Shown in pieces: positions 4,421 to 29,213 of a stretch of 64,000 nucleotides of DNA. Source of the stretch: an uncultured Acidobacteriota bacterium (lineage in GTDB: Bacteria; Acidobacteriota; Thermoanaerobaculia; Gp7-AA8); contig CAVUKB010000007.1 of NCBI GenBank assembly GCA_963741955.1, positions 28,246 through 92,245 of the forward strand. Reading direction: 5' to 3'. How positions within the stretch are numbered: position 1 is the stretch's first letter; each line of letters starts with the position of its first letter. The notes under the pieces are model-generated. The model was not told the DNA's origin, did no database searches, and saw only the letters and a list, made by a program, of their open reading frames with translations. The position numbers were made by a program, and so were the translations under genes.

Positions 4421-4550
4421 TCGGCCGCGGGCGGGCTTTCCGAGGAGGAATCACGAACCCGCCGATCGCGAACTGGTCCGCAATTCGCATCGGCTCTGTC
4501 CGCCAGCCGGAACGTCAACACCTAAATCCGCCGTCGAACAGGAGCGTCGA

Positions 4551-6836
4551 ATGAGCACCGTCGAACCGCAAGCGCCCTCTCTCCCGGAGTTCGAAAAAGA
4601 AGTCGCCGAAACGCAGGAATGGCTCGACAGCCCCCGCTTCCGGGAGATCACCCGTCTCTACTCCGCACGACAGGTCGTCGAGCAGCGCGGCACGATCCGC
4701 ACGGAATACAGCGTCGCTCGCGACGCCGCGGTTGCTTTTTACGACCGCCTCCGCGAGCTCTTCCGCGAAAAGAAAGCGGTCACCACGTTCGGTCCCTATT
4801 CGCCCGGACAGGCGGTCGCCTTGAAGCGCATCGGAATCGAGGCGATTTACCTCGGCGGTTGGGCGACGTCGGCCAAGGGCTCGACCCACGAAGATCCCGG
4901 ACCCGATCTCGCCAGCTATCCCCTCAGTCAGGTCCCGGATGAGGCAGCGGTTCTGGTCCGCGCGCTCCTCGCGGCGGACCGCAACCAGCAGTTCCTTCGG
5001 TCGCGGATGAGCGAACAGCAACGGGCCAAGACGCCGGTCTACGATTTCCGCCCGTTCATCATCGCCGATGCAGATACGGGACACGGAGGCGATCCGCACG
5101 TACGGAATCTCGTGCGGCGCTTCGTCGAGGCAGGGGTGTCCGGGTACCACATCGAGGACCAGCGGCCGGGGACGAAAAAGTGCGGACATCAGGGGGGGAA
5201 GGTCCTGGTCGGATCGGACGAACAGATCAAGCGCCTGAACGCGGCGCGCTTTCAGCTCGACGTGATGCGCGTCCCTGGAATCATCGTGGCGCGAACGGAT
5301 GCCGAAGCGGCGACTCTCATCGACAGCCGCGGAGACGAGCGCGATCAGCCGTTCATCCTCGGCGCGACGAACGTGAACCTTCCCGCGTACAAGGCTGCGT
5401 TTCTCGCGCTGATGCGCCGGTTCCACTCACTCGGGGTGAAAGAACTGAACGGGTTCATGCTCTACGAACCGTCGGATGAAGAGATGCGGGACGCCGACGA
5501 GTGGCTCGAGCGGACCGGTCTGGCCGCCGAGGCGAAGGGAGCCATCGATCGGATCACCCGGAATGAAGGTTTCTCGGTCGATGCGCTCTTCGACAGCGTT
5601 GCGTCGCATCTGATCGAGATCTGGGAGGCGGAGGCGGGGCTCGAGACGTACAGCGAGGCGGTTGCGGACGTACTCGAGTTCCAGCAGAGCGAAGGCGAAC
5701 CGATCGAGATGACGCCGGAGGAATGGCGGATCTACGCGTCGCGCGCGTCTCTCTACGCGGCCCGGAAGACGGCGCGCTCGCTCGGAGTGAACATCGTCTG
5801 GAACTGCGAGCACGCGAAGACGCCGGACGGCTACTACCAGGTCCGTGGCGGAATCGAGTACGCCATCGCGAAGTCACTGGCTGTCGCCCCCTTCTCCGAC
5901 ATTCTCTGGATGGAAACGAAGACGGCGGATCTCGCCGACGCGAAGAGATTCGCGGACGCGATCCACGCGCGGTTCCCGGACAAAATGCTCGCCTACAATC
6001 TCTCGCCCTCCTTCAACTGGGATTCCACCGGAATGACTGATGACGACATGCGGGCGTTCCCCGGTGAGCTCGGTAAGATGGGATTCGTCTTCAACTTCAT
6101 CACCTATGGTGGCCATCAGATCGACGGACTGGCGGCAGAGGAGTTCGCGACCGCGCTGCGGCAGGACGGGATGCTCGCGCTCGCGAGGCTGCAGCGGAAG
6201 TTCCGGCTGGTCGAGTCGCCGTACCGCACGCCCCAGACGCTGGTCGGCGGCCCCCGTCTCGATGCCGCGCTCGCCGCATCGTCCGGCCGGACCGCCACCA
6301 CGAAGGCGATGGGGAAAGGATCGACGCAGCACCAGCATCTGATCCAGACCGAAGTCCCGAAGAAGCTGCTCGAGGAGTGGCTCGGAATGTGGGCCGACTA
6401 CTACCAGCTGCGAGGACCTCTCACCGTGGATCTGAGGCCGCAGCGGGCGGGGTCAGAGCTTCTGGAGCTGGCCATCGTGCGCAGCGACGAGAAGGAGGCG
6501 AACGTCATCTTCGCACCGATCCTGGACCGGCGGGAACGGACGATTCTTTCCGTACGCGACCAGAACACGTTCGACGAAGAGCTTCGAAGAAAGCGGCTGA
6601 TGACGCTGATCCACCTCTTCCTGATCCACCGCTACAAAGCCGAGTCGGTGCACTACGTCACTCCGACCGAGGACAACCAGTACCAGACCTCGAAGATGAA
6701 GTCGCACGGGATCTTCAGCCAGGTGAACACGGAGGTGGGACAGATCATCGTTGCGGATGTGAATCACCCGCGGATCGCCGAGCTCCTCGCGCCGGACCGC
6801 GAAGCTCTGTGGAAGTTGATCCGGAAAGAGGGGTAG
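4551..6836 (+). CDS. aceA: Isocitrate lyase, long form (ICL2/AceAb-like, about 761 aa)
   Basis: [12 protein letters not shown] catalytic signature. N-terminal MSTVEPQ... typical of ICL. ATG at 4551 with a GGAG RBS. The track ORF from 4296 is an upstream extension into the repeat array. Confidence 0.9.
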
Positions 6837-10159: not shown

Positions 10160-10337
10160 TCGGCTCGCAAAGTTCCGGATTCGGAGCGAAGATGGGAAGC
10201 AGGAGCGGGCCGCGCGAGCGCGCGGTCCGTTCCGCCCCCTGAGCGTTCAGGCGAAGGGGAGGATTCGATCCGGGCTGAGATCGGAGTCGCCAAGGCGGAC
10301 GGGTCCGGCTCCCTGAGAGAGCCCTCGAGAGGGCCGC

Positions 10338-12167
10338 ATGAAGAAGGTCACCGATCAGGACGTGCTCGACGGGGTCAGGTCTTTCGACCGGACGTTCTTC
10401 GATCCCTCTGCACGTCTGAAGGTGATCGGCTCCGGTTCGCTCGGAGGGAAGGCCCAGGGGCTGGCTTTCGCGCGGATGGTTCTCGACTCCTCGTTTCCCC
10501 ATGGCCGCTTCCCGCGAATCGAGGTCGGAATCCCAAGCATGACCGTCCTCCGCACGGGGGTGTTCGACGCATTCGTCGAACGGAACGGCCTCGGGAAATT
10601 CAGGGACATTACGACCGAGAGTTCATCGGAAACCGCAACATCGCGCCTGACTCCCCCCTTCATCGGGATGAGAGATGAACCGGAATCGGCGGAACGGTCC
10701 GACGAGGAGATCGCACGCGCGTTTCAACGTGGCGACATGCCGGTGGAAGTGCTCGGCGACCTGCGCGCGCTCGTAGAGCAGGTGAAGACTCCTCTTGCGA
10801 TCCGGTCGTCGAGTCTCCTGGAGGACGCACTCGGCGAGCCGTTCGCCGGCGTCTACCAGACCAAGATGATCCCGAACAATCAGCCGAGTCCGGACGACCG
10901 CTTCCGGCCGCTGGTGGACGCGATCAAGCTGGTATGGGCCTCGACCTTCTTCAGCGGCGCACGCCGCTACCGCGCGGCCGCGGCCGACATTCGCGAAGAG
11001 AAGATGGCGGTGATCATCCAGGAAGTGGTCGGTGACCGCTACGACCAGCGCTTCTACCCGTACGTCTCCGGCGTCGCTCGCTCGATCAACTACTATCCCA
11101 CCGGGCGCGCGCGTCCCGAAGATGGCGTCGCGAATCTCGCCCTCGGTCTCGGCAAGACCATCGTGGACGGGTCGGTCTGCTGGACGTACTCGCCCGCGTT
11201 TCCCGCCGCCGCACCGCCGGTCGGGTCACCACTGGAGCTGGTGAAGACCACCCAGACGAGCTTCTGGGCGGTGAACATGGGGAAGCCCCCGGCATACGAT
11301 CCGATTCACGAGACGGAGTTCCTCGTGCAGCCGGGGCTCGACGACGCCGAGAACGACGGATCACTCGACTGGGTCGCGTCGACGTTCGACGCGGCCGCGG
11401 GGAGGATCACTCCGGGGATCGGACGAAGCGGCCCGCGGGTGCTCGACTTCGCCATGATCCTCGCCCTCCGCGAGCAGCCGCTGAACGACATCGTCCGCGA
11501 GCTCCTGACGCTCTTCGAGAAGTCACTGGAGGCCCCCGTGGAGATCGAGTTCGCGATGAGCCTCGAGCCGGCTCGCTTCGGATTTCTCCAGGTCCGTCCG
11601 ATGATGGTCTCCTCCGCGATCGTGGAGATCGACGAAGACGATCTCTTCGGTCCCGATGTTCTGGTGGCTTCCGAGCGCGTTCTCGGAAACGGGGAGATCG
11701 AGACGATCCGCGACGTGGTCTACGTTCGTCCGGACCGTTTCGACGCGAAGGAGACGCCCCGGATCGCTCTGGAGCTCGAGCAGATCGACCGGGTGGTATC
11801 ACGAACCGGCGGGCCGTATCTTCTGATCGGGTTCGGACGATGGGGGAGCAGCGATCCATGGCTCGGGATCCCGGTGAGCTGGCCGCAGATTGCGGGAGCA
11901 CGGGCGATCGTCGAAGCGATGACCACGAGGATGAACGTCGATGCGAGTCAGGGATCGCATTTTTTCCACAACCTGACCAGCTTTGGAGTTTCCTACTTCT
12001 CGATCTCCGCCCGCGGGCCGTACGCGATCGACTGGGAATGGCTCGAAAGGCAGACTGCGGGAGAGGAAACTGAGCTCGTACGCCACGTCCGTCTCGATGC
12101 GCCGCTGACGGTGAAGGTTGACGGACGTACGGGGCGAGGGGTGATCATGAAGGGCGGAAGGCGATGA
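10338..12167 (+). CDS. PEP-synthase/PPDK N-terminal-like ATP-binding (ATP-grasp, PF01326-like) domain protein without a phosphohistidine domain
   Basis: GSGSLGGKAQGL, IRSSSLLEDALGEPFAGVYQTK, MAVIIQEVVG and GVARSINYYP match the PpsA nucleotide-binding domain. The C-terminal domain is shared with the downstream paralog (GFGRWGS, GSHFFHNL). No GGxTSHAAIxARE swivel motif. Confidence 0.75.
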   Translation: MKKVTDQDVLDGVRSFDRTFFDPSARLKVIGSGSLGGKAQGLAFARMVLDSSFPHGRFPRIEVGIPSMTVLRTGVFDAFVERNGLGKFRDITTESSSETATSRLTPPFIGMRDEPESAERSDEEIARAFQRGDMPVEVLGDLRALVEQVKTPLAIRSSSLLEDALGEPFAGVYQTKMIPNNQPSPDDRFRPLVDAIKLVWASTFFSGARRYRAAAADIREEKMAVIIQEVVGDRYDQRFYPYVSGVARSINYYPTGRARPEDGVANLALGLGKTIVDGSVCWTYSPAFPAAAPPVGSPLELVKTTQTSFWAVNMGKPPAYDPIHETEFLVQPGLDDAENDGSLDWVASTFDAAAGRITPGIGRSGPRVLDFAMILALREQPLNDIVRELLTLFEKSLEAPVEIEFAMSLEPARFGFLQVRPMMVSSAIVEIDEDDLFGPDVLVASERVLGNGEIETIRDVVYVRPDRFDAKETPRIALELEQIDRVVSRTGGPYLLIGFGRWGSSDPWLGIPVSWPQIAGARAIVEAMTTRMNVDASQGSHFFHNLTSFGVSYFSISARGPYAIDWEWLERQTAGEETELVRHVRLDAPLTVKVDGRTGRGVIMKGGRR

Positions 12168-15100
12168 TCGACGAGAATCAGATTCCGATGGAGAAGCTCC
12201 TCAACGCTCTGCAGGAGCGGACCAAGGAGCTCGGGTGCCTCTATCGGGTCGAGGAGCTTTTCAGCCAGCCGGGGATCACGTTGCCGGAAATTCTGGAGGG
12301 GATCGTCCAGGCGATACCTGCGGGTTGGCAGTACGTCGACGTCTGCGAAGCTCAGATCACGATCGGCTCGCTGGTGGTGACTTCGCCGGGATACCGCGAC
12401 ACCCCGTGGACGATCGAGTCGCCTCTGACGGTGCAGGATCAGATCGTCGGGCGCATCATGGTCGTCTATCTGGAAGAGCGTCCCGCGGAGGATGAAGGAC
12501 CCTTTCTCAAGGAAGAGCGAAAGCTGATCGACACCATCGCCGACCGGCTCGAGCGTCGAATCCTCCACGAGAACCTCCGTCTGGTCTTCGAGCGCGAGCG
12601 GGAGAGAGCGACCACCGGAGTGGAGTGGCGGATCATCATCGACCTCCTCCGGAGGACCGACCCGAAGCTCCTTGCGCGCATCTCGCGCAAGATGCTCTAC
12701 CACCTCGCGTGGGCCGGCGTCGACGACGTCAATCCGATCATCGAAGATTTCAGCAACAACGCGCGGGAGGAAGGTGATCCGGAAGTCGACGAGAACCGAC
12801 CGCTTCCGCTCACACTGCGCCGCGACTTTCTCGACATGACCGAGCAGATCTTCGAGATCGCGGCGAACCACATCAGCGAATCGGAGATCCTGTCGAACAT
12901 CCAGAAGTGGATCAAGGAAGACCGTTCGGGCTTTCTGGTCCGCATCCTGGAGAATCCGGTCTCCTCGCTCGCCGAGATCACCAACGCCATCGAGCGTTTC
13001 CATCATCTCGCCCCACAGGGGCTGGAGCTCTCGCTCCCGCGGGAACGCTCGTTCCGCGTCTCCCTGATCCGGCGACTCCTCAGCGATCACTCGGCGTTCA
13101 TCGGTGCGGCGAAGCACTTCATCGACGTCGACGACTTCTTCGATCTCCTCCGTCACGTGATCCATCCCGCCGGGAGCCACGGGAAGCTCGGCGGAAAAGC
13201 GGCGGGCCTGGTGCTCGCCTCCCACGTTCTCGAGCGCGACCACACCCGCTCCGAGATCTTCGGCGACGTTCGCACGCCGCGGACCTGGTACCTCACCTCG
13301 GACGGGATTCTCAACTTCATCGACAGCAATGATCTCGAAGAGATCGTGGAGCTGAAGTACGAAGATCTCGCGCGCGTGCGGCAGGAGTACCCGTACGTCG
13401 TTCACGTCTTCAAGAACTCCCCTCTACCGCCGGAGATCCTGAACGGTTTGTCCGTGGCTCTCGACGATCTTCCGGAGACACCTCTCATCGTCCGCAGCTC
13501 GAGTCTGCTCGAGGACCGGCTGGGGACGTCGTTCGCGGGGAAGTACAAGAGCCTCTTCATCGCGAATCAGGGATCGAAGCGGGAGCGCCTCGCGTCGCTG
13601 GTGGACGCGATCACTGAAGTCTATGCGTCGACGTTCGGGCCCGATCCGATCGAGTACCGGTCGGAGCACGGGCTGCTCGATTTCCACGAGGAGATGGGCA
13701 TCCTGATCCAGGAAGTAGCGGGAGCGAGGGTGGGACGCTATTACATGCCCGCGTTCGCGGGAGTGGCGTTCAGTCACAACGAGTTCCGCTGGTCGAAACG
13801 GATCCGCCGCGAAGATGGATTGATCCGGATGGTGCCGGGGCTCGGGACCCGTGCGGTGGACCGGATGAGCGACGACTACCCGATTCTGGTCGCTCCGGGG
13901 CAGCCGTCTCTCCGGGTGAACGTCACACTCGACGAGAAGGTGCGCTACTCGCCGAAGATGATGGACGTGATCAATCTGGAGACCAATTCACTCGAAACGG
14001 TGGAGGTCGATGATCTGCTGCGCGAGTTCGGCGACGAGTACCCGATGCTCCACCAGCTCGTCTCGATCCTCCGGGAGGACCGGCTGGTGCAGCCGACAGC
14101 GCTCGGGATCGAGCCGCAGAACGACCGGCTGGTGATGACGTTCGAGCGGCTGATCTCCGAGACGACGTTCGTCGAGCAGATCCGGACCATTCTCGACGTG
14201 CTGCAGCAGGAGCTCCGGATGCCGGTGGACATCGAGTTCGCGCACGATGGAAAAGATCTCTACCTGGTGCAGTGCCGGCCGCAGAGCTACGGCGCAGCGT
14301 CGATTCCGGCGGTCATCCCCCACGACCTCCCCCACGAGAGGATCGTCTTCACCGCCAAGCGTTACGTCTCGAACGGAACCGTTTCGGGAATCACTCACAT
14401 CGTCTACGTCGATGCAGATCGATACGACGAGCTCCCGGATCGGGCGGACCGGCTCGCGGTCGGCCGCGCGGTCGGGCGGCTGAACCAGATCCTTCCCAAG
14501 AGGCAGTTCATTCTGATGGGCCCGGGTAGATGGGGAAGCCGTGGGGACATCCGGCTCGGAGTGAGCGTCACGTACTCCGACATCCACAACACGTCCATGC
14601 TGCTGGAGATCGCGAGGAAGAGGCGCGACTACGTTCCGGAGCTCTCGTTCGGAACGCATTTCTTCCAGGACCTGGTCGAGGCGAATATCCGCTATCTGCC
14701 GCTCTACCCCGATGAGCCGGACGTGATCCTGAACGAAGATCTGCTCATCAGATCGCGAAATGCACTTCCCGATCTCCTTCCCGATTTCGCCCGATTCGCC
14801 GACGTGATCCGGGTCATCGACGTACCGGCTGAAACTGGAGGCATGACCCTCCAGGTCCTGATGAACGGCGACTCGGATGAAGCGATGGGTCTGTTGACCG
14901 AAACCACGCCCGAGATTCAGGAGCCTCAGGTGACCGCTCGGTTCAGTGAAGCCGTCCAGCGAGTCGACGACAGTCATTGGCAGTGGCGGCTCAGGATGGT
15001 CGAACAGATGGCGTCGGTGCTCGACGCGCAGCGCTACGGAGTTCACGCGCTCTACCTGTTCGGAAGCACCAAGAACGCGACCGCAGGCTCGGAGAGCGAC

Positions 15101-15379
15101 ATCGATCTCCTGATTCACTTCAAGGGTGAGGAACACCAGCGCCGCGAGCTTTCGGCATGGCTCGATGCCTGGAGCCTGGCGCTCGGACATCTGAATTACC
15201 TCCGGACGGGGAGGCGAATCGAACGGCTTCTCGACGTCCATTTCGTGACCGACGAGGACCTGCGTCGGAGAACGAGCTTTGCGGCCAAGATCGGGGCGGT
15301 CACGGATGCTGCCCGTCCAATTCCGCTCGCCGGAAGGGTCGGCACTCCGAGCCGCTCGGGACCGGTCACAGCTCCGTAG
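12164..15379 (+). CDS. Multidomain protein: N-terminal GAF-like sensor, PEP-synthase-like ATP-binding domain, paralogous C-domain, and C-terminal minimal nucleotidyltransferase (Pol-beta/MNT-like)
   Basis: ATGA overlap with the upstream paralog. GGKAAGLVLAS, VRSSSLLEDRLGTSFAGKYKS, MGILIQEVAG, GPGRWGS and GTHFFQDL are present. The C-terminal LFGSTKNATAGSESDIDLLIHF is a GS...DxD NTase motif. Confidence 0.75.
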   Translation: MIDENQIPMEKLLNALQERTKELGCLYRVEELFSQPGITLPEILEGIVQAIPAGWQYVDVCEAQITIGSLVVTSPGYRDTPWTIESPLTVQDQIVGRIMVVYLEERPAEDEGPFLKEERKLIDTIADRLERRILHENLRLVFERERERATTGVEWRIIIDLLRRTDPKLLARISRKMLYHLAWAGVDDVNPIIEDFSNNAREEGDPEVDENRPLPLTLRRDFLDMTEQIFEIAANHISESEILSNIQKWIKEDRSGFLVRILENPVSSLAEITNAIERFHHLAPQGLELSLPRERSFRVSLIRRLLSDHSAFIGAAKHFIDVDDFFDLLRHVIHPAGSHGKLGGKAAGLVLASHVLERDHTRSEIFGDVRTPRTWYLTSDGILNFIDSNDLEEIVELKYEDLARVRQEYPYVVHVFKNSPLPPEILNGLSVALDDLPETPLIVRSSSLLEDRLGTSFAGKYKSLFIANQGSKRERLASLVDAITEVYASTFGPDPIEYRSEHGLLDFHEEMGILIQEVAGARVGRYYMPAFAGVAFSHNEFRWSKRIRREDGLIRMVPGLGTRAVDRMSDDYPILVAPGQPSLRVNVTLDEKVRYSPKMMDVINLETNSLETVEVDDLLREFGDEYPMLHQLVSILREDRLVQPTALGIEPQNDRLVMTFERLISETTFVEQIRTILDVLQQELRMPVDIEFAHDGKDLYLVQCRPQSYGAASIPAVIPHDLPHERIVFTAKRYVSNGTVSGITHIVYVDADRYDELPDRADRLAVGRAVGRLNQILPKRQFILMGPGRWGSRGDIRLGVSVTYSDIHNTSMLLEIARKRRDYVPELSFGTHFFQDLVEANIRYLPLYPDEPDVILNEDLLIRSRNALPDLLPDFARFADVIRVIDVPAETGGMTLQVLMNGDSDEAMGLLTETTPEIQEPQVTARFSEAVQRVDDSHWQWRLRMVEQMASVLDAQRYGVHALYLFGSTKNATAGSESDIDLLIHFKGEEHQRRELSAWLDAWSLALGHLNYLRTGRRIERLLDVHFVTDEDLRRRTSFAAKIGAVTDAARPIPLAGRVGTPSRSGPVTAP

Positions 15380-19318: not shown

Positions 19319-20182
19319 CTAGCGCAGCCGCTCGGCTCCGGCGTAGACATTGAAGCGGCGATTCCGGACGAACCCGAGGAGCGTCATCCCTGCCTCGCGC
19401 GCCAGATCGACCGCGAGGGAGGAAGGCGCTCCGACCGCGGCGAGGAGGGGGATACCTGCGACCGCAGCCTTCTGGACGAGCTCGAAGCTCGCCCGGCCGC
19501 TGACCATCAGCACCGAGCTTGCGAGCGGAACGCGCCCGGCGAGAAATTCGCGGCCGATCACCTTGTCCAGAGCGTTGTGCCGGCCCACGTCTTCGCGGAG
19601 AGCTCTGAGCTCTCCCTCCCGCGAGAAGAGCCCCGATGCGTGCAGGCCGCCGGTCACGTCGAACGTCTCCTGTCGGCCGCGTAGCTCTTCTTCGAGCCGA
19701 TGGATGGTCGCCGAGTCGATCGAAAACGCCGAGGCGGACGAACGCACATACGGGATCCGAACCGCTTCGATCGAAGTCTTTCCGCAGATGCCGCAGCTCG
19801 AGGCGGTGTAGAAGTGACGCTCGAGTCGCGCGAGATCGGGGCTGATCGAGGAAGAGAGCGTCACCCGGACGATATTGGATCCGCCGTGGGGCTGCTGCGG
19901 CCCGCATGCGGCGATCTCTGCGATCTCGCCACGCTCCCGCACGATTCCTTCGGTGAAGAGAAAACCTGCCGCGAGCTCGTCGTCCTCCCCGGGAGTGCGC
20001 ATGGTGATGGAGATGGTCTGGCGCTGCGGCGCCCCTCCGTCCATCCATTCGAGCCGGATCTCCAGAGGCTCCTCGATGGCGACGGCGTCTTCGCGATTCG
20101 CGATCCGTTCGTCCGAGCAGAGCCCGATGCGATCGAGACGGAAACTCGAGATCGACGATCCGTCCGGCGGCGATAGAGACAT
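19319..20182 (-). CDS. fdhD: Formate dehydrogenase accessory sulfurtransferase FdhD
   Basis: SCGICGK motif and GGLHA...RHNALDK. About 287 aa from the ATG at 20182 with a GGAGGG RBS. The longer track ORF (507 aa) is an upstream extension. Confidence 0.85.
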   Translation of the reverse strand: MSLSPPDGSSISSFRLDRIGLCSDERIANREDAVAIEEPLEIRLEWMDGGAPQRQTISITMRTPGEDDELAAGFLFTEGIVRERGEIAEIAACGPQQPHGGSNIVRVTLSSSISPDLARLERHFYTASSCGICGKTSIEAVRIPYVRSSASAFSIDSATIHRLEEELRGRQETFDVTGGLHASGLFSREGELRALREDVGRHNALDKVIGREFLAGRVPLASSVLMVSGRASFELVQKAAVAGIPLLAAVGAPSSLAVDLAREAGMTLLGFVRNRRFNVYAGAERLR

Positions 20183-20356
20183 GTTCCCTCCGCATGCAAT
20201 TTCCGTGGAAGGAGGATTCACGCGGCCTGCCGCTTGCATCACTGCGAGTCGATTCGGACCTGAACGAGCGGAGGCGGCATGATCGGTGATCTTTTTCGCG
20301 ACTGGCCCCTGGTGCGGCAGATCCTCGAGGGAGGAGACGGTACCGGAGAGGAATCG

Positions 20357-23300
20357 ATGAGCCGCAGGACCCGTGAGCTCCGGCCGCGGAACGAAGACGC
20401 CGACGTCGCACGCTCGATCTGTCCCTACTGCGGGGTGGGCTGCGGACAGCTCATCTTCCACAAGGAAGGAAGGATCGTCTCCATCGAAGGAGATCCGGAG
20501 TCGCCGATCTCGCGCGGGCATCTCTGTCCGAAAGGTGCAGCGAGTCAGGAACTGCTCACCCATCCCGGGAGGCTCACGAAAGTCAGGTACCGCGCGCCCT
20601 ACACCACCGAGTGGCAGGAGATCTCTCTCGAGCGGGCCATGGAGATGATCGCCGACCGGGTCTGGCGCTCGCGCGAGAGGACGTTCGAGCAGAAGCGGGA
20701 CGGACGGACTCTGATGCAGTGCGGTGGCATCGCGCATCTCGGCGGGGCGACCCTCGACAACGAAGAGAACTACGTCATCAAGAAGCTCTTCACCGCAGGC
20801 CTCGGCATGGTGGCAGTCAGCAACCAGGCCCGGATATGACACAGCTCCACGGTGCCCGGTCTGGGCACCTCGTTCGGACGCGGCGGAGCAACCACCGCAC
20901 AGCAGGACCTCGCCAACGCAGACGCCATTCTGATCATGGGATCATCCATGGCCGAGAATCATCCGGTCGGATTCCAGTGGGTGGTCGAGGCGCGTGAACG
21001 AGGAGCGAAGGTCATCCACGTCGACCCCCGCTTCACCCGGACCTCTGCGATGGCCGATTACTGGGTTCCTCTTCGTCCCGGTACGGACATCGTCTTCCTC
21101 GGCGGGATGGTCAACTACGTACTGCAGAACGACCGCGCTTTCCGCGAATACGTCGCGCACTACACCAACGCTCCCACCATCCTGAAGGAGGAGATGCAGG
21201 ACACCGAGGACCTCGGCGGCCTCTTCTCGGGATGGAATGACGACAAACAGCAGTACTCGCCGGAGAGCTGGTTCTACGAAGGTGCGAAGCGTAAGAGAAG
21301 ACCGAAGTCGAAGGAGCGTGAAGTCGCCGGACACGAGCCCGAAGGGGGAGGTCATGGGAAAGACCGCGGCGGCGAAGCTCAGAGCGTCAAGGACGGAGCG
21401 ATCGATCGTGATCCGGCCCTCGAGCATCCGCGCTGCGTCTACCAGGTATTGAAGCGACACTTCGAGCGCTACACGCCGGAGATGGTCGCCCGCTGCTGCG
21501 GTATTCCGAAGGAAGCCTTCCTGGAGGTGGCGGAGACGTTCGTCGCGGCGTCCGGTCCGGAGAAGACCGGCGCGATCTGCTACGCGGTGGGATGGACCCA
21601 GCACTCGACCGGCGTGCAGATCATCCGCACCGCAGCGATCCTCCAGCTGCTGCTCGGAAACATCGGACGCCCCGGCGGTGGAATCCTCGCCCTGAGGGGT
21701 CATGCCTCCATTCAGGGCTCCACCGACATTCCGACGCTCTACGACATCCTCCCCGGCTATCTCGCGATGCCCTTCTTCGAGGCGGATTCCGATTCCCTCA
21801 AGCAGTACATCCGGAAGCATTCCGCGAAGACCGGCTGGTGGGCGAACTTCGACAAGTACATCGTCAGCCTCCTCAAAGCCTACTTCGGCGAAGCAGCGAC
21901 GAAGGAAAACGAATACGGATTCCATTGGCTGCCGCGGGTGACCGGCGACCACTCGCACCAGGGCTACTGGCTGGAGATGATGGACGGCGGACTCGAGGGG
22001 CTGTTCGTGATGGGACAGAACCCTGCGGTCGGTGCGCCGAACGCAGGGTTGGAGCGGAAAGCGCTCGCGAAGCTCAAATGGCTCGTGGTGCGCGACCTCG
22101 TCGAGACGGAGACGGCGAGCTTCTGGTACGACTCGGCGGAAGTCAGGCGCGGGGAGGTGAAGCCGGAAGAGATCGGGACGGAAGTCTTTCTGATGCCCGC
22201 GGCCGGGCACGCCGAGAAGGAAGGGACGTTCACCAACACGCAGAGGCTCCTGCAATGGCACGAGAAGGCGGTCGATCCCCCCGGCGACGCCCGGAGCGAG
22301 ACGTGGTTCGTCGTCCATCTCGGCAATCTCCTCAAGGAAAAAGCGAAGGCGGAGGGGGGGCCGCGTAACGAAGGACTGAACGCACTCTGGTGGGACTACG
22401 AGCTCGAAGGACGGATGGGCGAGCCGAACGTTCAGCAGATTCTCGCGGAGATCAACGGCTGGACGGTGAAGGACCGGAAGCTCGTGAGCGGCTTCACCGA
22501 CCTGAAGGCGGACGGCTCCACCGCTTGCGGATGCTGGATCTACTCCGGAGTCTTTCCGTCTCACGACGAGAACAAGGCTCACAAGCGCGATCCTCGAGGC
22601 CCGTACGGTCACGGGTGGGGATTCGCCTGGCCCTCGGACCGGAGGATTCTCTACAACCGCGCGTCGGCCCGGCCGGACGGGCAGCCCTGGAGCGACAAGA
22701 AGAAGCTCATCTGGTGGGATGAAGAGAAGGGCGAATGGACGGGAGACGACGTTCCGGATTTCACGAAAGACAAACGCCCGGACTACAAGCCGAAGAAGAC
22801 GTCGAGAGGCGATGCGGGAACGGCCGGCGACCAGCCGTTCATCATGCATTCGGATGGAGTCGGATGGATCTGGGTTCCGTCGGGACTGAAAGACGGACCG
22901 CTCCCGACCCATTACGAACCGCTGGAGTCGCCGGTCAGAAATCCGCTGTACGAGACGCAGGTCAACCCGGCCGCCGACCGGAAGGAACGCCCCGACAATC
23001 CGTACGCGTCGTCACCTGATCCGAAGTTTCCCTACGTCCTCACGACGTACCGGCTGACCGAGCACCATACCGCAGGCGGGATGACCCGGCCGCTCTCACA
23101 TCTCGCCGAGCTTCAACCGGAGCTGTTCTGCGAGATCTCGCCCGAGCTCGCCGCGGAAGCGGGAGTCGAGCATGGGTCGTGGGCGAGGATCTCCACCCCG
23201 AGGGGAGAAATCCGCGCGCGGGTGATGGTCACCGGAAGGATGCGGTCGATGGAGGTGGAGGGGAAAGTCATCCATCAGGTGGGACTGCCGTATCACTGGG

Positions 23301-23434
23301 GATCGAAGGGACTGGTCCAGGGAGACGTAGTGAACGACCTGGTCGCGATGTCCGAAGAACCGAACGTCAGGATCATGGAGACGAAGGCCCTGCTGTGCAA
23401 CCTCGAAAGCATCGGGGAAGCATCTGATATCTGA
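20357..23434 (+). CDS. fdhA: Formate dehydrogenase catalytic (molybdopterin) subunit, selenocysteine-containing. In-frame TGA at 20837..20839.
   Basis: ORFs 20279..20839 and 20852..23434 are in the same frame. CPYCGVGCG FeS motif. The sequence VSNQARI-TGA-HSSTVPGLGTSFGRGG aligns with E. coli FdnG/FdhF ...ARV-U-HGP(S/T)VA.LA..FGRGAM. The start could also be 20279. Confidence 0.8.
20851..20869 (+). promoter_or_regulatory. SECIS-like hairpin 11 nt downstream of the in-frame UGA
   Basis: ggugccc-GGUCU-gggcacc stem-loop with G/U in the apical loop, as in bacterial fdhF SECIS. Confidence 0.6.
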
Positions 23435-23591: not shown

Positions 23592-24374
23592 ATGTCTCTC
23601 ACAGGATTTCTCACCGACTCGACCCTCTGCATCGGCTGCAAGGCATGCGAAGTGGCGTGCAAGGAATGGAACGAGGTGCCGGAGGATGGCCTCGTCTGGA
23701 GCGGGATGTCGTACGACAACACCCTCGCTCTCGGCGGATCGACCTGGCGGCACGTGAAGTTCCTCGAATTCGATCCGGAGATCGGGAAGGGAGGAAACTC
23801 CGCGGAGCGGGTGACGTGGGAGTTCTCCTCGGATGTCTGCAAGCATTGCGAAGTCGCCGGATGCCTCGAGGCGTGTCCGACCGGCTCGATCGTCCGCACC
23901 GAGTTCGGAGGCGTCTACGTCCAGCCGGACGTCTGCAACGGATGCGGATACTGTGTGGTCACCTGCCCGTTCGGGGTGATCGACAAGCGCATCGAAGACG
24001 GACGGATGTTCAAGTGCACGTTCTGCTACGACCGTCAGAAGGCGGGGGCGGAGCCTGCCTGTGCGAAGGCGTGCCCGACTCAGTCGATTCTGTTCGGCGA
24101 TCTCGACACGCTGCGGGAGCGTGCAGGTGAACGAATCCGCGAGCTCCAGTCCGCGGGGATGGACGACGCGACGCTGTGGGATCCGCAGCACACCACGGTG
24201 GAAGGAACGCACGCGATCTTCATCGTGCGTGGGGATCCGGCGAGTTACAACCTTCCCCCGAATCCGGAAGTACCACAGGCGAAGCTCTATGCCGGATGGA
24301 TGTCGGCCGCCGTCACGGCCGGGGCGATCCTTCTCGGTTCGGTGGTCGCGTTCGCCGCAGGAGGCCGCCGATGA
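23592..24374 (+). CDS. fdhB: Formate dehydrogenase iron-sulfur subunit (4x[4Fe-4S], FdnH-like) with a C-terminal TM anchor
   Basis: CIGCKACEVACKEWN, CKHCEVAGC, CNGCGYCVVTCPFG and CTFCYDR clusters. C-terminal hydrophobic helix. Confidence 0.85.
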   Translation: MSLTGFLTDSTLCIGCKACEVACKEWNEVPEDGLVWSGMSYDNTLALGGSTWRHVKFLEFDPEIGKGGNSAERVTWEFSSDVCKHCEVAGCLEACPTGSIVRTEFGGVYVQPDVCNGCGYCVVTCPFGVIDKRIEDGRMFKCTFCYDRQKAGAEPACAKACPTQSILFGDLDTLRERAGERIRELQSAGMDDATLWDPQHTTVEGTHAIFIVRGDPASYNLPPNPEVPQAKLYAGWMSAAVTAGAILLGSVVAFAAGGRR

Positions 24375-25378
24375 AGGAACGGATTCCGAGCCGGGTCAGC
24401 GAAGCGCGCCTCGACCAGCTCCGTCAGGAAGCAGAAATCCGGGGACGGGTGAAGGAGCCGGGGATCCGACCGCTCGGCGCTCCTTTCCCGCAGGCGACCC
24501 CGGAGCACGGCTACTACGGACTTCCTCTGCTCAAGAAGCCGACCTGGAAGTGGGAGATCCCGGCATACTTTTTCGTCGGCGGCGCGGCAGGAGCCGCTGC
24601 GGTCGTCGGTGCTGCGGCCCAGCTGAGTGGTGACGAACGGCTGGTGCGTGAGGCACGCTGGGTTGCCGCGGCCGGAGCGACTCTTTCTGCTCCGCTGCTC
24701 GTCTCCGACCTCGGCCGGCCGGAACGTTTTCTCGCCATGCTCCGGGTGTTCAAGCTCCAGAGCCCGATGTCGGTCGGTGCGTGGACGCTGACCGCATTCG
24801 GTTCGACCAGTGCGGCAGCGGCGTTCGCGAAGTTGATCGAGGAGAAGAGCGAGGGGCGCACGCCGGTTCGCATTCTCGGCGACGCGGCTGCGGCGCTCTC
24901 CGCGGCGACCGGTCTCGGAATGGCGACCTACACCGGAGTCCTCGTCGGCGCGACGGCGATCCCGGTGTGGCAGGAGAACGTGCGGCTCCTCCCTCTCCAC
25001 TTCGGCGCGTCGGCTCTCGCCTCGGCCGTCTCCCTCCTCGAGCTTCTCGGCAATCGCAACGGCGCGCTGAACGCACTCGGCTTCGGCGCCGCGGTGGTCG
25101 AGACCGGAGTCGGAGCGGTCTTCGAGAATGAAACCGGACGCGCGTTCAAGCCGCTCAAAGAGGGAGAGAGCGGAACGATCACCCGAATCGGCGGCGTCCT
25201 CTCCGGACCGGCGCCGCTTCTGCTCCGTCTCGCCAGTGCACTGGTCGGGAGCGGATGGCGCCTCCGTCAGGCCGCAGCGGTCTCCAGTCTCGCCGGATCG
25301 CTGATCACACGCTACGCATGGCTCGAAGCGGGAAAAGAATCGGCGAAGGATCCGACGATCCCGCTCGAGATCGAGTGA
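24371..25378 (+). CDS. Formate dehydrogenase membrane subunit, NrfD/PsrC-like polytopic anchor
   Basis: ATGA overlap with fdhB. About 8 predicted TM helices rich in Gly and Ala. Start at the internal Met of track ORF 24176. Confidence 0.65.
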   Translation: MKERIPSRVSEARLDQLRQEAEIRGRVKEPGIRPLGAPFPQATPEHGYYGLPLLKKPTWKWEIPAYFFVGGAAGAAAVVGAAAQLSGDERLVREARWVAAAGATLSAPLLVSDLGRPERFLAMLRVFKLQSPMSVGAWTLTAFGSTSAAAAFAKLIEEKSEGRTPVRILGDAAAALSAATGLGMATYTGVLVGATAIPVWQENVRLLPLHFGASALASAVSLLELLGNRNGALNALGFGAAVVETGVGAVFENETGRAFKPLKEGESGTITRIGGVLSGPAPLLLRLASALVGSGWRLRQAAAVSSLAGSLITRYAWLEAGKESAKDPTIPLEIE

Positions 25379-26446: not shown

Positions 26447-27187
26447 CTACTGCAGCTCGCGGAACCAGCGGTTCGCGCGGGGAAGGAAGTAGTGGCCGTA
26501 ATCGAGCGAGAACGCCACCGCGGTGGCTCGGCCGACGATGCGCTTGCGGGGGATCGGCCCGAGATAACGGCTGTCGTAACTGTCGTCGCGATTGTCGCCC
26601 ATCACGAAATACGAATTCGGGGGGACCTGGATCGGACCATACGTGCGAAGGGCTGGAGCATCGGGGAGAAGCATGATGTCGTGATGCACGCCGTCGAGGT
26701 TTTCCTGTGCGATCTCGACGCGTGAGCCGCGGCGCACTCCCTCCGCATCGACGGCGTCTCCTTCGAGCAACCGGTACGACATCGCTCTTCCGTTGATCAC
26801 CACCCGTTCGTCGCGGATCTCGATCACGTCACCGGGAAGCCCGATCACCCGTTTCACCAGGCGCGTGCCGTCCTTCGGTGAGAAAAAGACGACGATGTCG
26901 CCGCGTTTCGGATTGGTCCAGGTCGAGATGTGCGTGGTGGTGAAGGGAACCTTCAGGTCGTACGCGACCTTGTTCACCACGACACGGTCGCCTTCGACGA
27001 TGGTCGGTTTCATCGAAGCGGTGGGGACGTCGTTCCAGTCCGCGAGGGCCGAGCGGAGCGACCCGAGGCAGATGGCGATGATCAGAAACGGAAGAATCCA
27101 CTCTTTCCAGAGGTAGCGTGCACCTCGAGTCACACTGCTCTCCGGCTCTGCGGCGTCGCCGGCCGTCTCTCTGATCGCGTCGGACAT
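26447..27187 (-). CDS. lepB: Signal peptidase I
   Basis: SMKPTIVEGDRVVVNK (S26 box B), GDNRDDSYDSRY (box E). Start uncertain (27187 or 27247). Confidence 0.85.
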   Translation of the reverse strand: MSDAIRETAGDAAEPESSVTRGARYLWKEWILPFLIIAICLGSLRSALADWNDVPTASMKPTIVEGDRVVVNKVAYDLKVPFTTTHISTWTNPKRGDIVVFFSPKDGTRLVKRVIGLPGDVIEIRDERVVINGRAMSYRLLEGDAVDAEGVRRGSRVEIAQENLDGVHHDIMLLPDAPALRTYGPIQVPPNSYFVMGDNRDDSYDSRYLGPIPRKRIVGRATAVAFSLDYGHYFLPRANRWFRELQ

Positions 27188-27284
27188 GCTTAGGATCCCT
27201 TTCGTGCCTGCCGGACAGAACATCGGGGTACGGTTCATTGCTTCCATCAGGGACCGCCGCGCACGGCGGCGGAGGTTTCGAGAG

Positions 27285-28559
27285 ATGCGCCGAACCGGCT
27301 ACAATGACTCACTCACCGTGACGACCACTGCCGAATCGATCCCTCCCTCCGTTTCCACGATTGCAGCGCCGGTCGAAGGGGTGCGCGAGCGCCTGACGTC
27401 GCTCGACGTCTTCCGCGGCATCACCATCGCGGGGATGCTCCTGGTGAACGATCCCGGCAGCTGGGGGGCGATCTATCCTCCGCTCGAGCATGCGCCGTGG
27501 CACGGCTGGACTCCGACGGACCTGATCTTCCCGTTCTTCCTCTTCATCGTCGGAATCACGACCCATCTTTCGCTCACGGCGCGACGTGCTCGCGGAGCGG
27601 ACGAGCGGGAACTGCTCCGGCAGATCCTCCGCCGCGGGACGATCATCCTTCTGATCGGACTCTTCCTGAACGCATTCCCGTTCTTCGCCTGGTGGAAACT
27701 CGACGGCATTGCGAACCCGACCTTCATGCAGCGCGTGGTGTGGCGGTTCGCGCACATGCGCTTTCCCGGAGTGCTGCCGCGGATCGGGGTCGCGTACATG
27801 ATCGGAGCGCTCCTCACGTTCCGTACGTCGGTCCGCCAGCAGCTGGCGATTCTCGGCGGAATCCTGGTCGGATACTGGGCGGTGATGACTCTGGTGCCCG
27901 TGCCGGGGACGGGAGTGATCGGGGCACAGCTTCTCGACCGGCCGGAACTCGTCCTCTCGGCGTGGCTCGACCGGATCGTCTTCGGCCCGCACCTCTGGGC
28001 GCAGACGAAGACGTGGGATCCGGAGGGACTCCTCTCGACCGTTCCCGCGGTCGGCACGGTGATTCTCGGCGTGCTGGCGGGGAGGTGGATCGGAAGCGGG
28101 CGACCCCTCCAGGAACGGCTGAACGGACTCTTCGCCGTCGGCTCGCTGACCATGGTCGCGGGGCTGGCGTGGAACTGGGTGTTTCCCATCAACAAGAATC
28201 TCTGGACCAGCTCCTACGTCCTCTTCACCGCGGGCATGGGAGCGGTCACTCTCGCGACGTGCATCTGGATCATCGACGTGAAGAAGATGCGCGGATGGTC
28301 GAAGCCGTTCGTGGTGTTCGGCATCAACCCGATTCTCGCCTTCGCCGGATCGGCATTCATGGCGCGGATGATCTATTCGCTGATCAAAGTGACCTACCAG
28401 GGGAGGACGGTGCCGATCGAGGCCGCGATCTACCATGGCGCATTCGCCAGCTGGTTGCCGCCACGCCCCGCATCGCTCGCTTTCGCGATCTGTTTCGTCC
28501 TTCTCTGGCTGGCGATCCTCTGGCCACTTCACGAACGAAACATCATCATCAAGATCTGA
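27285..28559 (+). CDS. Membrane acyltransferase, DUF1624/HGSNAT-like (heparan-alpha-glucosaminide N-acetyltransferase family)
   Basis: RLTSLDVFRGITIAGMLLVN and WHGWTPTDLIFPFFLFIVG motifs. About 10 TM segments. Start at the internal ATG at 27285. Confidence 0.6.
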   Translation: MRRTGYNDSLTVTTTAESIPPSVSTIAAPVEGVRERLTSLDVFRGITIAGMLLVNDPGSWGAIYPPLEHAPWHGWTPTDLIFPFFLFIVGITTHLSLTARRARGADERELLRQILRRGTIILLIGLFLNAFPFFAWWKLDGIANPTFMQRVVWRFAHMRFPGVLPRIGVAYMIGALLTFRTSVRQQLAILGGILVGYWAVMTLVPVPGTGVIGAQLLDRPELVLSAWLDRIVFGPHLWAQTKTWDPEGLLSTVPAVGTVILGVLAGRWIGSGRPLQERLNGLFAVGSLTMVAGLAWNWVFPINKNLWTSSYVLFTAGMGAVTLATCIWIIDVKKMRGWSKPFVVFGINPILAFAGSAFMARMIYSLIKVTYQGRTVPIEAAIYHGAFASWLPPRPASLAFAICFVLLWLAILWPLHERNIIIKI

Positions 28560-28568
28560 CCCCTTTCG

Positions 28569-29213
28569 ATGCGCGCCCTTCGAATCGCCACGCTCCTGAT
28601 CCTGATCGCGGCCTCTGCGGCCGTCGCGGGTGATCTGCGCATCATGATTTTCGACCCGTCGCAGGGAATCGCGGGGTGGGAGTCGAAGAGCTTCGCAGGG
28701 AAGACCGAATACACGCTCGGCGCACGCGAGGGACGGATGTGCCTGCACGCGGCCAGCAGCGACAGCGCCTCTGCGCTGATCCACTCCGTGGACGTCGATC
28801 TCGAGAAGACTCCCTACCTTCACTGGTCGTGGAGGATCGCGGCAACGATGGGTAGCGTCGACGAGCGCACGCGCAAAGGCGATGATTACCCGGCGCGGAT
28901 CTACATCGTCTTCGCACGAACGACGCTTTTCTCTCTTCCTTCGGGGATCAACTACGTCTGGACATCGCAACTGCCGGCGGGAACGGTCTGGACGAACGCT
29001 TTCGTCTCACGCGTGCGGATGATCGCAATTCGCTCGGGGATGGAACAGGCGCGCTCGTGGATCGACGAGCGACGAAACGTCCTGGCGGACGCGCGCTCTC
29101 TCTTCGGGGAGGACGTTCCCCGCGTCGTCGCGGTCGGCCTGATGACCGACAGCGACAATACCGGCGGTCGCTCGTCCGCCGATTACGGACAGATCTGGTT
29201 CGCGAACGACTGA
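28569..29213 (+). CDS. Secreted hypothetical protein (possibly DUF3047-like)
   Basis: Signal peptide MRALRIATLLILIAASAAVA. Coding-like composition. Confidence 0.5.
   Translation: MRALRIATLLILIAASAAVAGDLRIMIFDPSQGIAGWESKSFAGKTEYTLGAREGRMCLHAASSDSASALIHSVDVDLEKTPYLHWSWRIAATMGSVDERTRKGDDYPARIYIVFARTTLFSLPSGINYVWTSQLPAGTVWTNAFVSRVRMIAIRSGMEQARSWIDERRNVLADARSLFGEDVPRVVAVGLMTDSDNTGGRSSADYGQIWFAND

What the first reader, a model, noticed from the sequence alone, without database searches (positions are those of the whole stretch)
20837..20869. In-frame UGA selenocysteine codon and SECIS hairpin inside the formate dehydrogenase catalytic subunit gene
Six-frame analysis splits the gene at TGA 20837, but both halves are in the same frame and align across the stop with the FdnG/FdhF ...ARV-U-HGP... 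selenocysteine site. A ggugccc-GGUCU-gggcacc hairpin lies 11 nt downstream. Automated annotation would mis-call two genes or a pseudogene.
Basis: partly seen in the sequence, partly recalled or inferred. Interest (0 to 1): 0.5.

Follow-up and report, generated by a model that had tools for sequence, protein, structure and literature searches.

The report
Selenocysteine codon in formate dehydrogenase gene
The stop codon that seems to split this soil bacterium's formate dehydrogenase gene is a genuine, conserved selenocysteine codon followed by its RNA hairpin signal, which is a textbook arrangement already handled by NCBI annotation and therefore ordinary.

Summary
TGA 20837-20839 joins two same-frame ORFs into one 1051-aa formate dehydrogenase alpha subunit (NCBIfam NF041513, 1600 bits against a cut-off of 1400). 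The TGA aligns with the selenocysteine of solved FDH structures (QARI-U-HS). A GGUGCCC/GGUCU/GGGCACC hairpin starts 11 nt after the UGA.

The comparative evidence is strong. All 80 Acidobacteriota species homologues (73-79% amino-acid identity) keep the TGA. They share a 6-bp stem that is paired in every sequence, with compensatory changes at both wobble-wobble pairs, and an invariant GGUCU loop. Synonymous sites are nearly frozen at the five hairpin codons. Two Cys (TGC) homologues lack the hairpin, and four more distant TGA homologues have it. In Tsukamurella the same operon sits beside selD-selC-selA-selB, and in Arthrobacter beside selD and selA. TGA is the ordinary stop for 27 of 37 window ORFs, so the recoding is site-specific.

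Corrections: the motif is ARI-U-HSS, not ARV-U-HGP. Prodigal-type calls do split the gene, but NCBI already annotates a near-identical MAG contig as one 1051-aa product.

Not shown: selA, selB, selC and selD were not found in the window, about 8.5 kb beyond one end of it, or 1.5 Mb of homologous loci. The rest of the genome could not be searched.

Verdict: a known, ordinary feature of low interest.

The parts
19319..20182 (-). fdhD-like gene (FdhD/NarQ family, 287 aa), divergent from fdhA; the family is known as a formate dehydrogenase maturation factor
   Evidence: Pfam PF02634 on the equivalent called genes of the near-identical contig L001 and the identical contig L002; translation
20270..20274 (+). 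Shine-Dalgarno-like GGAGG, 4 nt before the ATG at 20279
   Evidence: read directly from the sequence
20279..23434 (+). fdhA: a single 1051-aa selenocysteine-containing formate dehydrogenase alpha subunit, read through UGA codon 187
   Evidence: NF041513 1600.7 bits (cut-off 1400) and TIGR01553 986 bits (cut-off 814). NCBI annotates a 1051-aa product on the near-identical contig. GC3 is 0.80 on both sides of the TGA.
20837..20839 (+). In-frame UGA, the selenocysteine codon (residue 187), the Mo/W-ligand position
   Evidence: Aligns with X (Sec) in QARIXHS of 6SDR chain A. TGA in 80 of 80 Acidobacteriota homologues and in 4 of 6 more distant family members; the other 2 have TGC.
20851..20869 (+). 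SECIS hairpin: 5' arm 20851-20857, loop GGUCU 20858-20862, 3' arm 20863-20869. The conserved core is the 6-bp stem 20852-20857/20863-20868. The outermost pair 20851/20869 is present here but not conserved.
   Evidence: In 81 sequences the six core pairs are 100% paired, with compensatory changes at columns 24/36 and 27/33. The loop is invariant. Wobble entropy at the five hairpin codons is 0-0.53 bits against a mean of 1.49. Rfam SECIS_3 scores 31.8 bits, E 1.6e-5, below the gathering score of 63.
23592..24374 (+). fdhB: 4Fe-4S electron-transfer subunit (260 aa) with a hydrophobic C-terminal segment
   Evidence: TIGR01582 FDH-beta E 6e-56, below its cut-off; Fer4 Pfam families; translation
24371..25378 (+). 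NrfD/PsrC-type membrane anchor subunit (335 aa)
   Evidence: PF03916 and PF14589 on the equivalent gene of L001. The same fdh-4Fe4S-nrfD order occurs in annotated Arthrobacter, Tsukamurella, Chelatococcus and Thermomicrobium records.

Best explanation
fdhA (20279-23434) is one gene for a selenocysteine-containing molybdo/tungstopterin formate dehydrogenase alpha subunit of the actinobacterial-type family NF041513. It belongs to an fdhD / fdhA-fdhB-nrfD locus in an Acidobacteriota genome.

Proposed mechanism: during translation, the UGA at 20837 is read as selenocysteine. The hairpin 11 nt downstream (a 6-7 bp G+C-rich stem with a GGUCU loop) acts as a bacterial SECIS. It would recruit SelB-GTP-Sec-tRNA(Sec) to the ribosome when the UGA is in the A site, outcompeting RF2. 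The inserted Sec would become the metal ligand of the active site.

Shown here:
- the single reading frame and family membership;
- alignment of the UGA with the structural Sec;
- conservation of the UGA;
- conservation and covariation of the hairpin, and its association with TGA rather than TGC;
- normal use of UGA as a stop codon elsewhere in the window.

Inferred:
- SelB binding and actual selenium insertion;
- presence of selA/B/C/D elsewhere in this genome.
For: (1) The two halves share a frame and fuse to a 1051-aa protein scoring 1600.7 bits on NF041513, cut-off 1400.

(2) The UGA aligns with Sec in QARIXHS of D. vulgaris FdhA 6SDR; E. coli FdnG 1KQF is also a hit.

(3) All 80 species-representative Acidobacteriota homologues (73-79% aa identity) have TGA in frame at this codon. 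Amino acids are conserved on both sides, while synonymous sites vary freely (mean wobble entropy 1.49 bits).

(4) The six core stem pairs are paired in 81 of 81 sequences. The two wobble-wobble pairs show compensatory changes (GC 69, CG 7, AU 2, UG 2, GU 1; and CG 79, AU 1, GC 1). None of 500 shuffles reached the observed covariation score, and slid controls collapsed to 22-53% paired. RNAalifold predicts the same helix.

(5) The loop GGUCU is invariant, including the GGU glycine wobble U in a genome with GC3 near 0.8. The five hairpin codons are among the seven lowest wobble entropies of 109 conserved four-fold codons.

(6) In E. coli fdhF, E. coli fdnG and this gene, the stem starts 11 nt after the UGA. 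The GGUC occupies nt 21-24 from the U of UGA, exactly as in fdhF.

(7) Control with more distant relatives: four TGA homologues (Arthrobacter, Tsukamurella, Indioceanicola, Thermomicrobium) have the hairpin at the same place. Two TGC homologues (Nonomuraea, Chelatococcus) do not.

(8) In Tsukamurella the same operon is adjacent to selD, tRNA-SeC(tca), selA and selB. In Arthrobacter it is adjacent to selD and selA.

(9) TGA terminates 27 of 37 window ORFs, including fdhA itself, fdhB and nrfD. UGA is therefore not reassigned genome-wide.

(10) Acidobacteria are documented Sec users. Four selenoproteins in three families were reported in PMC1794560. Occallatibacter riparius has a Sec-FdhA with the motif NQARIUHS (PMC12013277, Data S1).
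Against: No selA, selB or selD and no tRNA-Sec were found in the 64-kb window, in about 8.5 kb past its 3' end, or in 1.5 Mb of homologous Acidobacteriota loci. The required machinery is therefore unverified for this genome.

The hairpin scores below the Rfam SECIS_3 gathering threshold (31.8 against 63), and nothing reaches a gathering score in the window.

The hairpin lacks the bulged U of the E. coli fdhF SECIS. No lower helix is supported by covariation. The single-sequence folding z-score is unremarkable at -1.35.
Confidence: 0.93

Rival explanations
1. Pseudogene: a Cys-type fdhA in which TGC/TGT mutated to TGA, leaving a truncated, non-functional gene.
For: TGC to TGA is a single substitution. 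Cys-codon members of the same family exist, in Nonomuraea and Chelatococcus. No sel genes are seen locally.
Against: The same TGA is present in 80 of 80 different species, with an intact downstream frame and amino-acid conservation on both sides. The hairpin is under purifying selection at synonymous sites and covaries. The operon partners fdhD, fdhB and nrfD are intact.
Confidence: 0.01
2. Split gene: two separately translated polypeptides, a 186-aa Fe4S4-domain protein and an 860-aa molybdopterin protein starting at GTG 20852, assemble into the enzyme.
For: Prodigal-style gene callers output exactly these two products (L002). A GTG lies 12 nt after the TGA.
Against: The active-site Sec/Cys ligand would be missing from both pieces. 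The frame is kept across the junction in all 81 sequences with no indel. There is no Shine-Dalgarno-like sequence before the GTG. That GTG is the valine codon inside the conserved hairpin, and it is GTC, GTA or GTT in some homologues, so it cannot be a conserved start.
Confidence: 0.01
3. Site-specific UGA recoding to an amino acid other than Sec. An example would be Cys delivered by a tRNA-Sec-like tRNA(Cys)UCA or an acidobacterial allo-tRNA suppressor, with the hairpin serving a SelB-like factor or simply slowing termination.
For: Mukai et al. (PMC5389517) describe selC*-type tRNA(Cys)UCA with a second selB copy in Deltaproteobacteria, and possible suppressor allo-tRNAs in Acidobacteria. The sel genes are not verified in this genome.
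Against: The hairpin matches the SelB-binding fdhF SECIS in spacing and in the GGUC loop. The same hairpin type occurs in Tsukamurella, where a complete selD-selC-selA-selB set is adjacent. Cultured Acidobacteriota are listed as Sec-utilizing with a Sec-FdhA.
Confidence: 0.03

Closest known systems
E. coli fdhF (FDH-H) SECIS, the experimentally defined bacterial SECIS
   Same: The stem-loop lies inside the coding sequence. The stem begins 11 nt after the UGA, and GGUC occupies nt 21-24 from the U of UGA. The minimal functional element is described as a 17-nt upper stem-loop that binds SelB (PMC11431864).
   Different: There is no bulged U in the 5' arm. The loop has 5 nt (GGUCU) closed by C-G, rather than a 4-nt GGUC loop closed by A-U. 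The stem is continuous and G+C-rich, with 6-7 bp. No lower helix is conserved. The host protein is an FdnG-like enzyme of about 1050 aa, not the 715-aa FDH-H.
E. coli fdnG/fdoG SECIS (Rfam RF01989, SECIS_3) and Fdh-N
   Same: It is the best Rfam match, covering the full model length 1-59. The position is homologous in a homologous protein (QARV-U-HG against QARI-U-HS). Both have an alpha-beta-membrane subunit organisation.
   Different: The score is 31.8 bits against a gathering score of 63. The lower-stem pairs of the model are non-canonical here. The loop is GGUCU rather than AGUCU. The membrane subunit is NrfD-type, not the cytochrome b FdnI. The alpha subunit has no twin-arginine signal motif.
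NF041513 'formate_DH_Act' family: Sec-FDH of Actinomycetota (Tsukamurella, Arthrobacter; mycobacterial FDH described in PMC13449736) and Thermomicrobium
   Same: It scores above the family cut-off. The fdh-4Fe4S-nrfD gene order is the same. The TGA and a hairpin occur at the same position (GGUUCCC-GGUCU-GGGAGCC in Tsukamurella).
   Different: In the Actinomycetota examples the sel genes lie next to the operon (selD-selC-selA-selB in Tsukamurella, selD-selA in Arthrobacter). In the window and in 80 Acidobacteriota loci they are not within about 10 kb.
D. vulgaris FdhAB (PDB 6SDR) and D. gigas W-FDH (1H0H), solved Sec-containing FDH structures
   Same: These are the best structural relatives of the N-terminal 309 aa (E 5e-80). 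The QARIXHS motif is identical around Sec.
   Different: Those enzymes are periplasmic, Tat-exported, soluble heterodimers. This one has an NrfD-type anchor gene and no recognisable Tat motif.

Membership tests
Sec-containing formate dehydrogenase alpha subunit (NCBIfam NF041513 / TIGR01553) | Whole-protein HMM score above the curated cut-off | tested here: met
   NF041513 1600.7 bits against 1400; TIGR01553 986 bits against 814.2
Sec-containing formate dehydrogenase alpha subunit (NCBIfam NF041513 / TIGR01553) | In-frame UGA at the position of the catalytic Sec/Cys metal ligand (U-H-x-x motif) | tested here: met
   X aligns with Sec (X) in QARIXHS of 6SDR chain A. The same column is TGA in 80 of 80 homologues.
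Sec-containing formate dehydrogenase alpha subunit (NCBIfam NF041513 / TIGR01553) | N-terminal Fe4S4 cysteine motif and molybdopterin domains | tested here: met
   CPYCGVGCG...C is in the translation. PF04879 is found on the 186-aa piece, and PF00384 and PF01568 on the 860-aa piece of the identical contig L002.
Sec-containing formate dehydrogenase alpha subunit (NCBIfam NF041513 / TIGR01553) | Selenium actually incorporated at that residue | not testable with these tools
   Needs 75Se labelling or mass spectrometry
Bacterial SECIS (bSECIS consensus model as quoted in PMC13188914) | [quoted passage not shown] | tested here: met
   The hairpin at 20851-20869 starts 11 nt after the UGA
Bacterial SECIS (bSECIS consensus model as quoted in PMC13188914) | Apical loop of 3-9 nt and upper stem of 4-16 bp | tested here: met
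   5-nt loop; 7-bp stem in the window, 6 bp conserved
Bacterial SECIS (bSECIS consensus model as quoted in PMC13188914) | G in one of the first two loop positions, often followed by G or U | tested here: met
   The loop is GGUCU, invariant in 81 sequences
Bacterial SECIS (bSECIS consensus model as quoted in PMC13188914) | 16-37 nt between the UGA and the apical loop | tested here: met
   18 nt (20840-20857) lie between them
Bacterial SECIS (bSECIS consensus model as quoted in PMC13188914) | Structure maintained by selection (covariation; presence tied to TGA rather than TGC) | tested here: met
   Compensatory changes at 2 pairs, no broken core pair, 0 of 500 shuffles as high. Low wobble entropy. 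The hairpin is present in 4 of 4 distant TGA homologues and absent in 2 of 2 TGC homologues.
Bacterial SECIS (bSECIS consensus model as quoted in PMC13188914) | Binds SelB and directs Sec insertion | not testable with these tools
   Needs SelB binding or reporter assays
Rfam RF01989 SECIS_3 (fdnG/fdoG-type SECIS) | Covariance-model score at or above the gathering threshold | tested here: not met
   31.8 bits against 63, E 1.6e-5 in a 301-nt search. No hit at gathering thresholds in the window.
E. coli fdhF-type SECIS | Bulged U in the upper stem together with a GU in the loop (the role of the bulge in SelB binding is from my own knowledge, not checked here) | tested here: not met
   The loop GU is present at the same distance as in fdhF, but the stem is continuous with no bulge
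Sec-decoding trait of the host genome | selA, selB, selD and tRNA-Sec (selC) present in the genome | tested here: inconclusive
   None was found in the window, in about 8.5 kb beyond its 3' end by Pfam domain listing, or in 1.5 Mb of homologous loci. The loci were searched with bona fide Tsukamurella SelA/B/D and recalled E. coli sequences. ARAGORN does detect tRNA-SeC in the Tsukamurella positive control. The rest of the genome could not be reached.

The most novel reading that the evidence does not exclude
In these Acidobacteriota the UGA-plus-hairpin might be decoded by something other than the canonical SelB/tRNA-Sec route. An example is a tRNA-Sec-like Cys or suppressor allo-tRNA of the kind Mukai et al. 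reported for Acidobacteria. Alternatively, the bulge-less, invariant GGUCU hairpin might be read by a SelB with a different recognition mode. The sel genes were not seen anywhere near 81 fdh loci.
Probability: 0.03. Interest if true: 0.6.

Novelty: already known. Interest (0 to 1): 0.1.

Why it matters
There are two practical consequences.

1. Gene callers that ignore recoding split this catalytic subunit into 186-aa and 860-aa fragments, as seen on Logan contigs. The fragments should be merged, with residue 187 annotated as Sec.

2. The organism's formate oxidation probably depends on selenium supply.

Scientifically this adds little. FdhA is described as the most widely distributed bacterial selenoprotein family. 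Sec use in Acidobacteria has been reported since 2006. NCBI already annotates a near-identical contig as a single 1051-aa product.

The 81-sequence alignment does give a clean definition of the acidobacterial fdhA SECIS core: a 6-bp stem with a GGUCU loop, 12 nt after the UGA. That could serve as a covariance-model seed.

Tried and rejected
- Rfam at gathering thresholds over the whole window gave nothing. Only a sub-threshold SECIS_3 match appeared in a focused search.
- Single-sequence folding significance was not informative in this G+C-rich context (z = -1.35).
- Two candidate lower helices were tested (columns 14-18/55-59 and 14-16/52-54). Neither has any pair changed on both sides, and the first has 47 and 34 unpaired cells at two pairs. 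Both were rejected.
- The 7th, outermost pair of the window's hairpin is not conserved: 41 of 81 sequences are unpaired there.
- A DNA-level search against E. coli genomes found no match. E. coli fdnG and fdhF were fetched by coordinates instead.
- The search for the Sec machinery was negative everywhere I could look:
  - ARAGORN on the window and 83 loci;
  - NCBIfam on about 40 window ORFs;
  - tblastn with recalled E. coli SelA/B/D and with annotated Tsukamurella SelA/B/D;
  - a contig extension about 8.5 kb past the window's 3' end.
- Two exact-protein look-ups failed, probably because of start-codon choice.
- A second in-frame TGA junction at 28557 was checked. It is simply two adjacent genes, with a new start (MRALRIATLL...) right after the stop and no hairpin.
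- The 100-nt ARAGORN 'tRNA-Ser(cga)' in L009 has no Rfam support.
Full report
OBSERVATION. TGA occupies 20837-20839. ORF 20279..20839 (186 aa) and ORF 20852..23434 (860 aa) share a frame. Reading through gives a 1051-aa protein containing ...AVSNQARI-U-HSSTVPGLGTSFGRGG.... The hairpin GGUGCCC (20851-20857) / GGUCU (20858-20862) / GGGCACC (20863-20869) starts exactly 11 nt after the UGA. The quoted motif 'ARV-U-HGP' is the E. coli version. Here it is ARI-U-HSS.

Folding energy alone is not significant in this 63% G+C window (z = -1.35), but position is. This is the only 6-bp stem with a GGTCT loop on either strand of the window. Only 1 of 1701 TGA triplets carries a 6-bp/5-nt-loop hairpin at this spacing, whereas a generic bSECIS-like hairpin follows 4.1% of TGAs.

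WHAT THE GENE IS. The fused protein scores 1600.7 bits on NCBIfam NF041513 ('formate dehydrogenase', model name formate_DH_Act; cut-off 1400). It scores 986 bits on TIGR01553 (cut-off 814). The UGA aligns with the Sec (X) of D. vulgaris FdhA 6SDR in an identical QARIXHS motif, and E. coli Fdh-N 1KQF is also a strong hit.

The locus contains:
- fdhD (19319-20182, minus strand);
- fdhA (20279-23434), preceded by GGAGG at 20270-20274;
- fdhB, a 4Fe-4S subunit (23592-24374);
- an NrfD/PsrC-type membrane subunit (24371-25378).

The same fdh-4Fe4S-nrfD order is annotated in Arthrobacter, Tsukamurella, Chelatococcus and Thermomicrobium records.

The host is an acidobacterium. The 80 best genome hits are almost all Acidobacteriota MAGs (Terriglobales, Thermoanaerobaculia, Ca. 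Sulfotelmatobacter) at 73-79% identity. A near-identical contig, with 3 mismatches in 12.6 kb, is in NCBI MAG GCA_049580305.1.

COMPARATIVE EVIDENCE FOR RECODING. All 80 species-level homologues have TGA in frame at this codon within QARI*HS. In an 81-sequence alignment of the 66 nt around it (A1), the six core stem pairs (window 20852-20857 with 20863-20868) are paired in every sequence. The two pairs formed between codon third positions show compensatory changes:
- GC 69 / CG 7 / AU 2 / UG 2 / GU 1;
- CG 79 / AU 1 / GC 1.

None of 500 shuffles reached the observed covariation score or percentage paired. Slid controls dropped to 22-53% paired. RNAalifold independently predicts the same 6-bp helix. 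The seventh pair seen in the window is not conserved (41 of 81 unpaired). No lower helix is supported.

The loop GGUCU is invariant. Its GGU glycine codon keeps a wobble U in a genome with GC3 near 0.8. Among 109 conserved four-fold-degenerate codons in the N-terminal 309 codons, mean wobble entropy is 1.49 bits. The five hairpin codons V-P-G-L-G have 0.52, 0.20, 0, 0.20 and 0.53 bits, and are among the seven lowest. This is the signature of an RNA element overlapping a coding sequence.

CONTROLS.
- More distant members of the same protein family (58-64% identity) were found in annotated plasmid and replicon records. The four with TGA (Arthrobacter, Tsukamurella, Indioceanicola, Thermomicrobium) carry a hairpin at the same place, with a GGUCU, AGUCU or AGUUU loop. 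The two with TGC (Nonomuraea, Chelatococcus) have none.
- In Tsukamurella the operon is immediately followed by selD, a tRNA-SeC(tca), selA and selB. In Arthrobacter it is followed by selD and selA.
- UGA is not reassigned in this genome. It terminates 27 of 37 window ORFs, including fdhA, fdhB and nrfD. The read-through must therefore be site-specific.

COMPARISON WITH KNOWN SECIS ELEMENTS. In E. coli fdhF, E. coli fdnG and this gene, the upper stem starts 11 nt after the UGA. The GGUC of the loop sits at nt 21-24 from the U of UGA, exactly as in fdhF.

The element satisfies every structural constraint of the bSECIS consensus as quoted in PMC13188914. That model requires a 3-9 nt loop, a 4-16 bp stem, a G in the first two loop positions, and 16-37 nt from the UGA to the loop. 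Here the loop has 5 nt, the stem has 6-7 bp, the loop begins GG, and the distance is 18 nt.

The element differs from E. coli in two ways. It lacks the bulged U of fdhF. It scores only 31.8 bits on Rfam SECIS_3, whose gathering score is 63. It works like a SECIS and fits the general model, but it is not a member of RF01989 as curated.

WHAT IS NOT SHOWN. No sel gene or tRNA-Sec was found in any of the following:
- the window;
- about 8.5 kb beyond its 3' end;
- 1.5 Mb of homologous Acidobacteriota loci, searched with annotated Tsukamurella SelA/B/D and recalled E. coli sequences.

ARAGORN detects tRNA-SeC in the positive control. In this phylum the sel genes are evidently unlinked to fdh.

Indirect support comes from the literature. 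Acidobacteria had 4 selenoproteins in 3 families in the 2006 survey (PMC1794560). The cultured acidobacterium Occallatibacter riparius is listed among Sec-utilizing bacteria, with a Sec-FdhA (NQARIUHS) (PMC12013277).

RIVALS.
- A nonsense pseudogene is excluded by 80 of 80 conservation with intact downstream frames.
- A split gene would lack the catalytic ligand. Its putative GTG start is a non-conserved valine codon inside the hairpin.
- Non-Sec recoding, for example Cys through a tRNA-Sec-like tRNA or an allo-tRNA (PMC5389517), cannot be formally excluded without the genome or proteomics. It is unlikely given the fdhF-like hairpin and the sel-linked Actinomycetota orthologues.

VERDICT. The finding and its interpretation are correct, and the phenomenon is textbook. 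FdhA is described as the most widely distributed bacterial selenoprotein family (PMC13188914). NCBI already annotates the near-identical contig as one 1051-aa product, while Prodigal-style calls split it into 186 + 860 aa. Novelty: already known. Interest is low.

Noticed in passing
window 20279-20420; the equivalent N-termini in L004-L083: The alpha subunit has a conserved N-terminal extension of about 40 aa (..RWPLIxQIxTGxDGTGxEAMSxRTRxLRPK..) before the CxxCxxxC motif. None of the 81 sequences has a twin-arginine S/T-R-R-x-F-L motif. This is unlike E. coli FdnG and D. vulgaris FdhA, yet fdhB ends in a hydrophobic helix and an NrfD-type anchor follows. The side of the membrane that the enzyme faces is unclear.
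   Followed up: partly
L088/L092 (Tsukamurella plasmid 17) and L087 (Arthrobacter pYA7-1a), compared with the window and L004-L083: In Tsukamurella the fdh-4Fe4S-nrfD operon is directly flanked by selD-selC-selA-selB, and in Arthrobacter by selD and selA. In Arthrobacter this lies on a conjugative 130-kb plasmid, so a Sec-FDH operon with adjacent selD/selA is potentially mobile (whether selC and selB follow there was not checked). In 80 Acidobacteriota loci no sel gene lies within about 10 kb.
   Followed up: partly
window 20819-20821, 20843-20845, 20882-20884: Three further codons near the UGA have unusually low wobble entropy (0.35, 0.30 and 0.53 bits). They are Ser AGC six codons upstream, Ser AGC two codons downstream, and Gly GGC fifteen codons downstream. 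No covarying helix explains them.
   Followed up: partly
L009:15949-16048: ARAGORN calls a 100-nt 'tRNA-Ser(cga)' with the anticodon at position 37, about 5 kb downstream of the fdhA Sec codon in a Thermoanaerobaculia MAG. Rfam finds no tRNA there at E <= 0.01. It may be a false positive or an irregular, allo-tRNA-like gene of the kind reported in Acidobacteria.
   Followed up: partly
whole window: Stop-codon usage among 37 likely genes is TGA 27, TAG 10 and TAA 0.
   Followed up: no
window 28557-28559: A second same-frame TGA junction lies between a NagX-like acetyltransferase ORF (27117-28559) and the next ORF (28560-29213). A fresh start with a signal-peptide-like sequence (MRALRIATLLILIAAS) follows the stop and there is no hairpin, so these are simply adjacent genes.
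   Followed up: yes
window 10317-15379: Two adjacent large ORFs (616 and 1085 aa) match only the PPDK_N/PEP-utilising N-terminal region of PEP synthase. On the near-identical contig the second also carries weak or faint nucleotidyltransferase Pfam hits. Their function is unclear.
   Followed up: no
window 4215-6836: The isocitrate lyase homologue is unusually long, up to 873 aa in the stop-to-stop frame, with about 130 residues before the TIGR01346 match begins. The exact-protein look-up with the ATG 4296 start found nothing.
   Followed up: no
window 21270-21400 (FdhA residues about 331-375): A highly charged, low-complexity insertion (KRKRRPKSKEREVAGHEPEGGGHGKDRGGEAQ...) lies within the molybdopterin domain of FdhA.
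   Followed up: no
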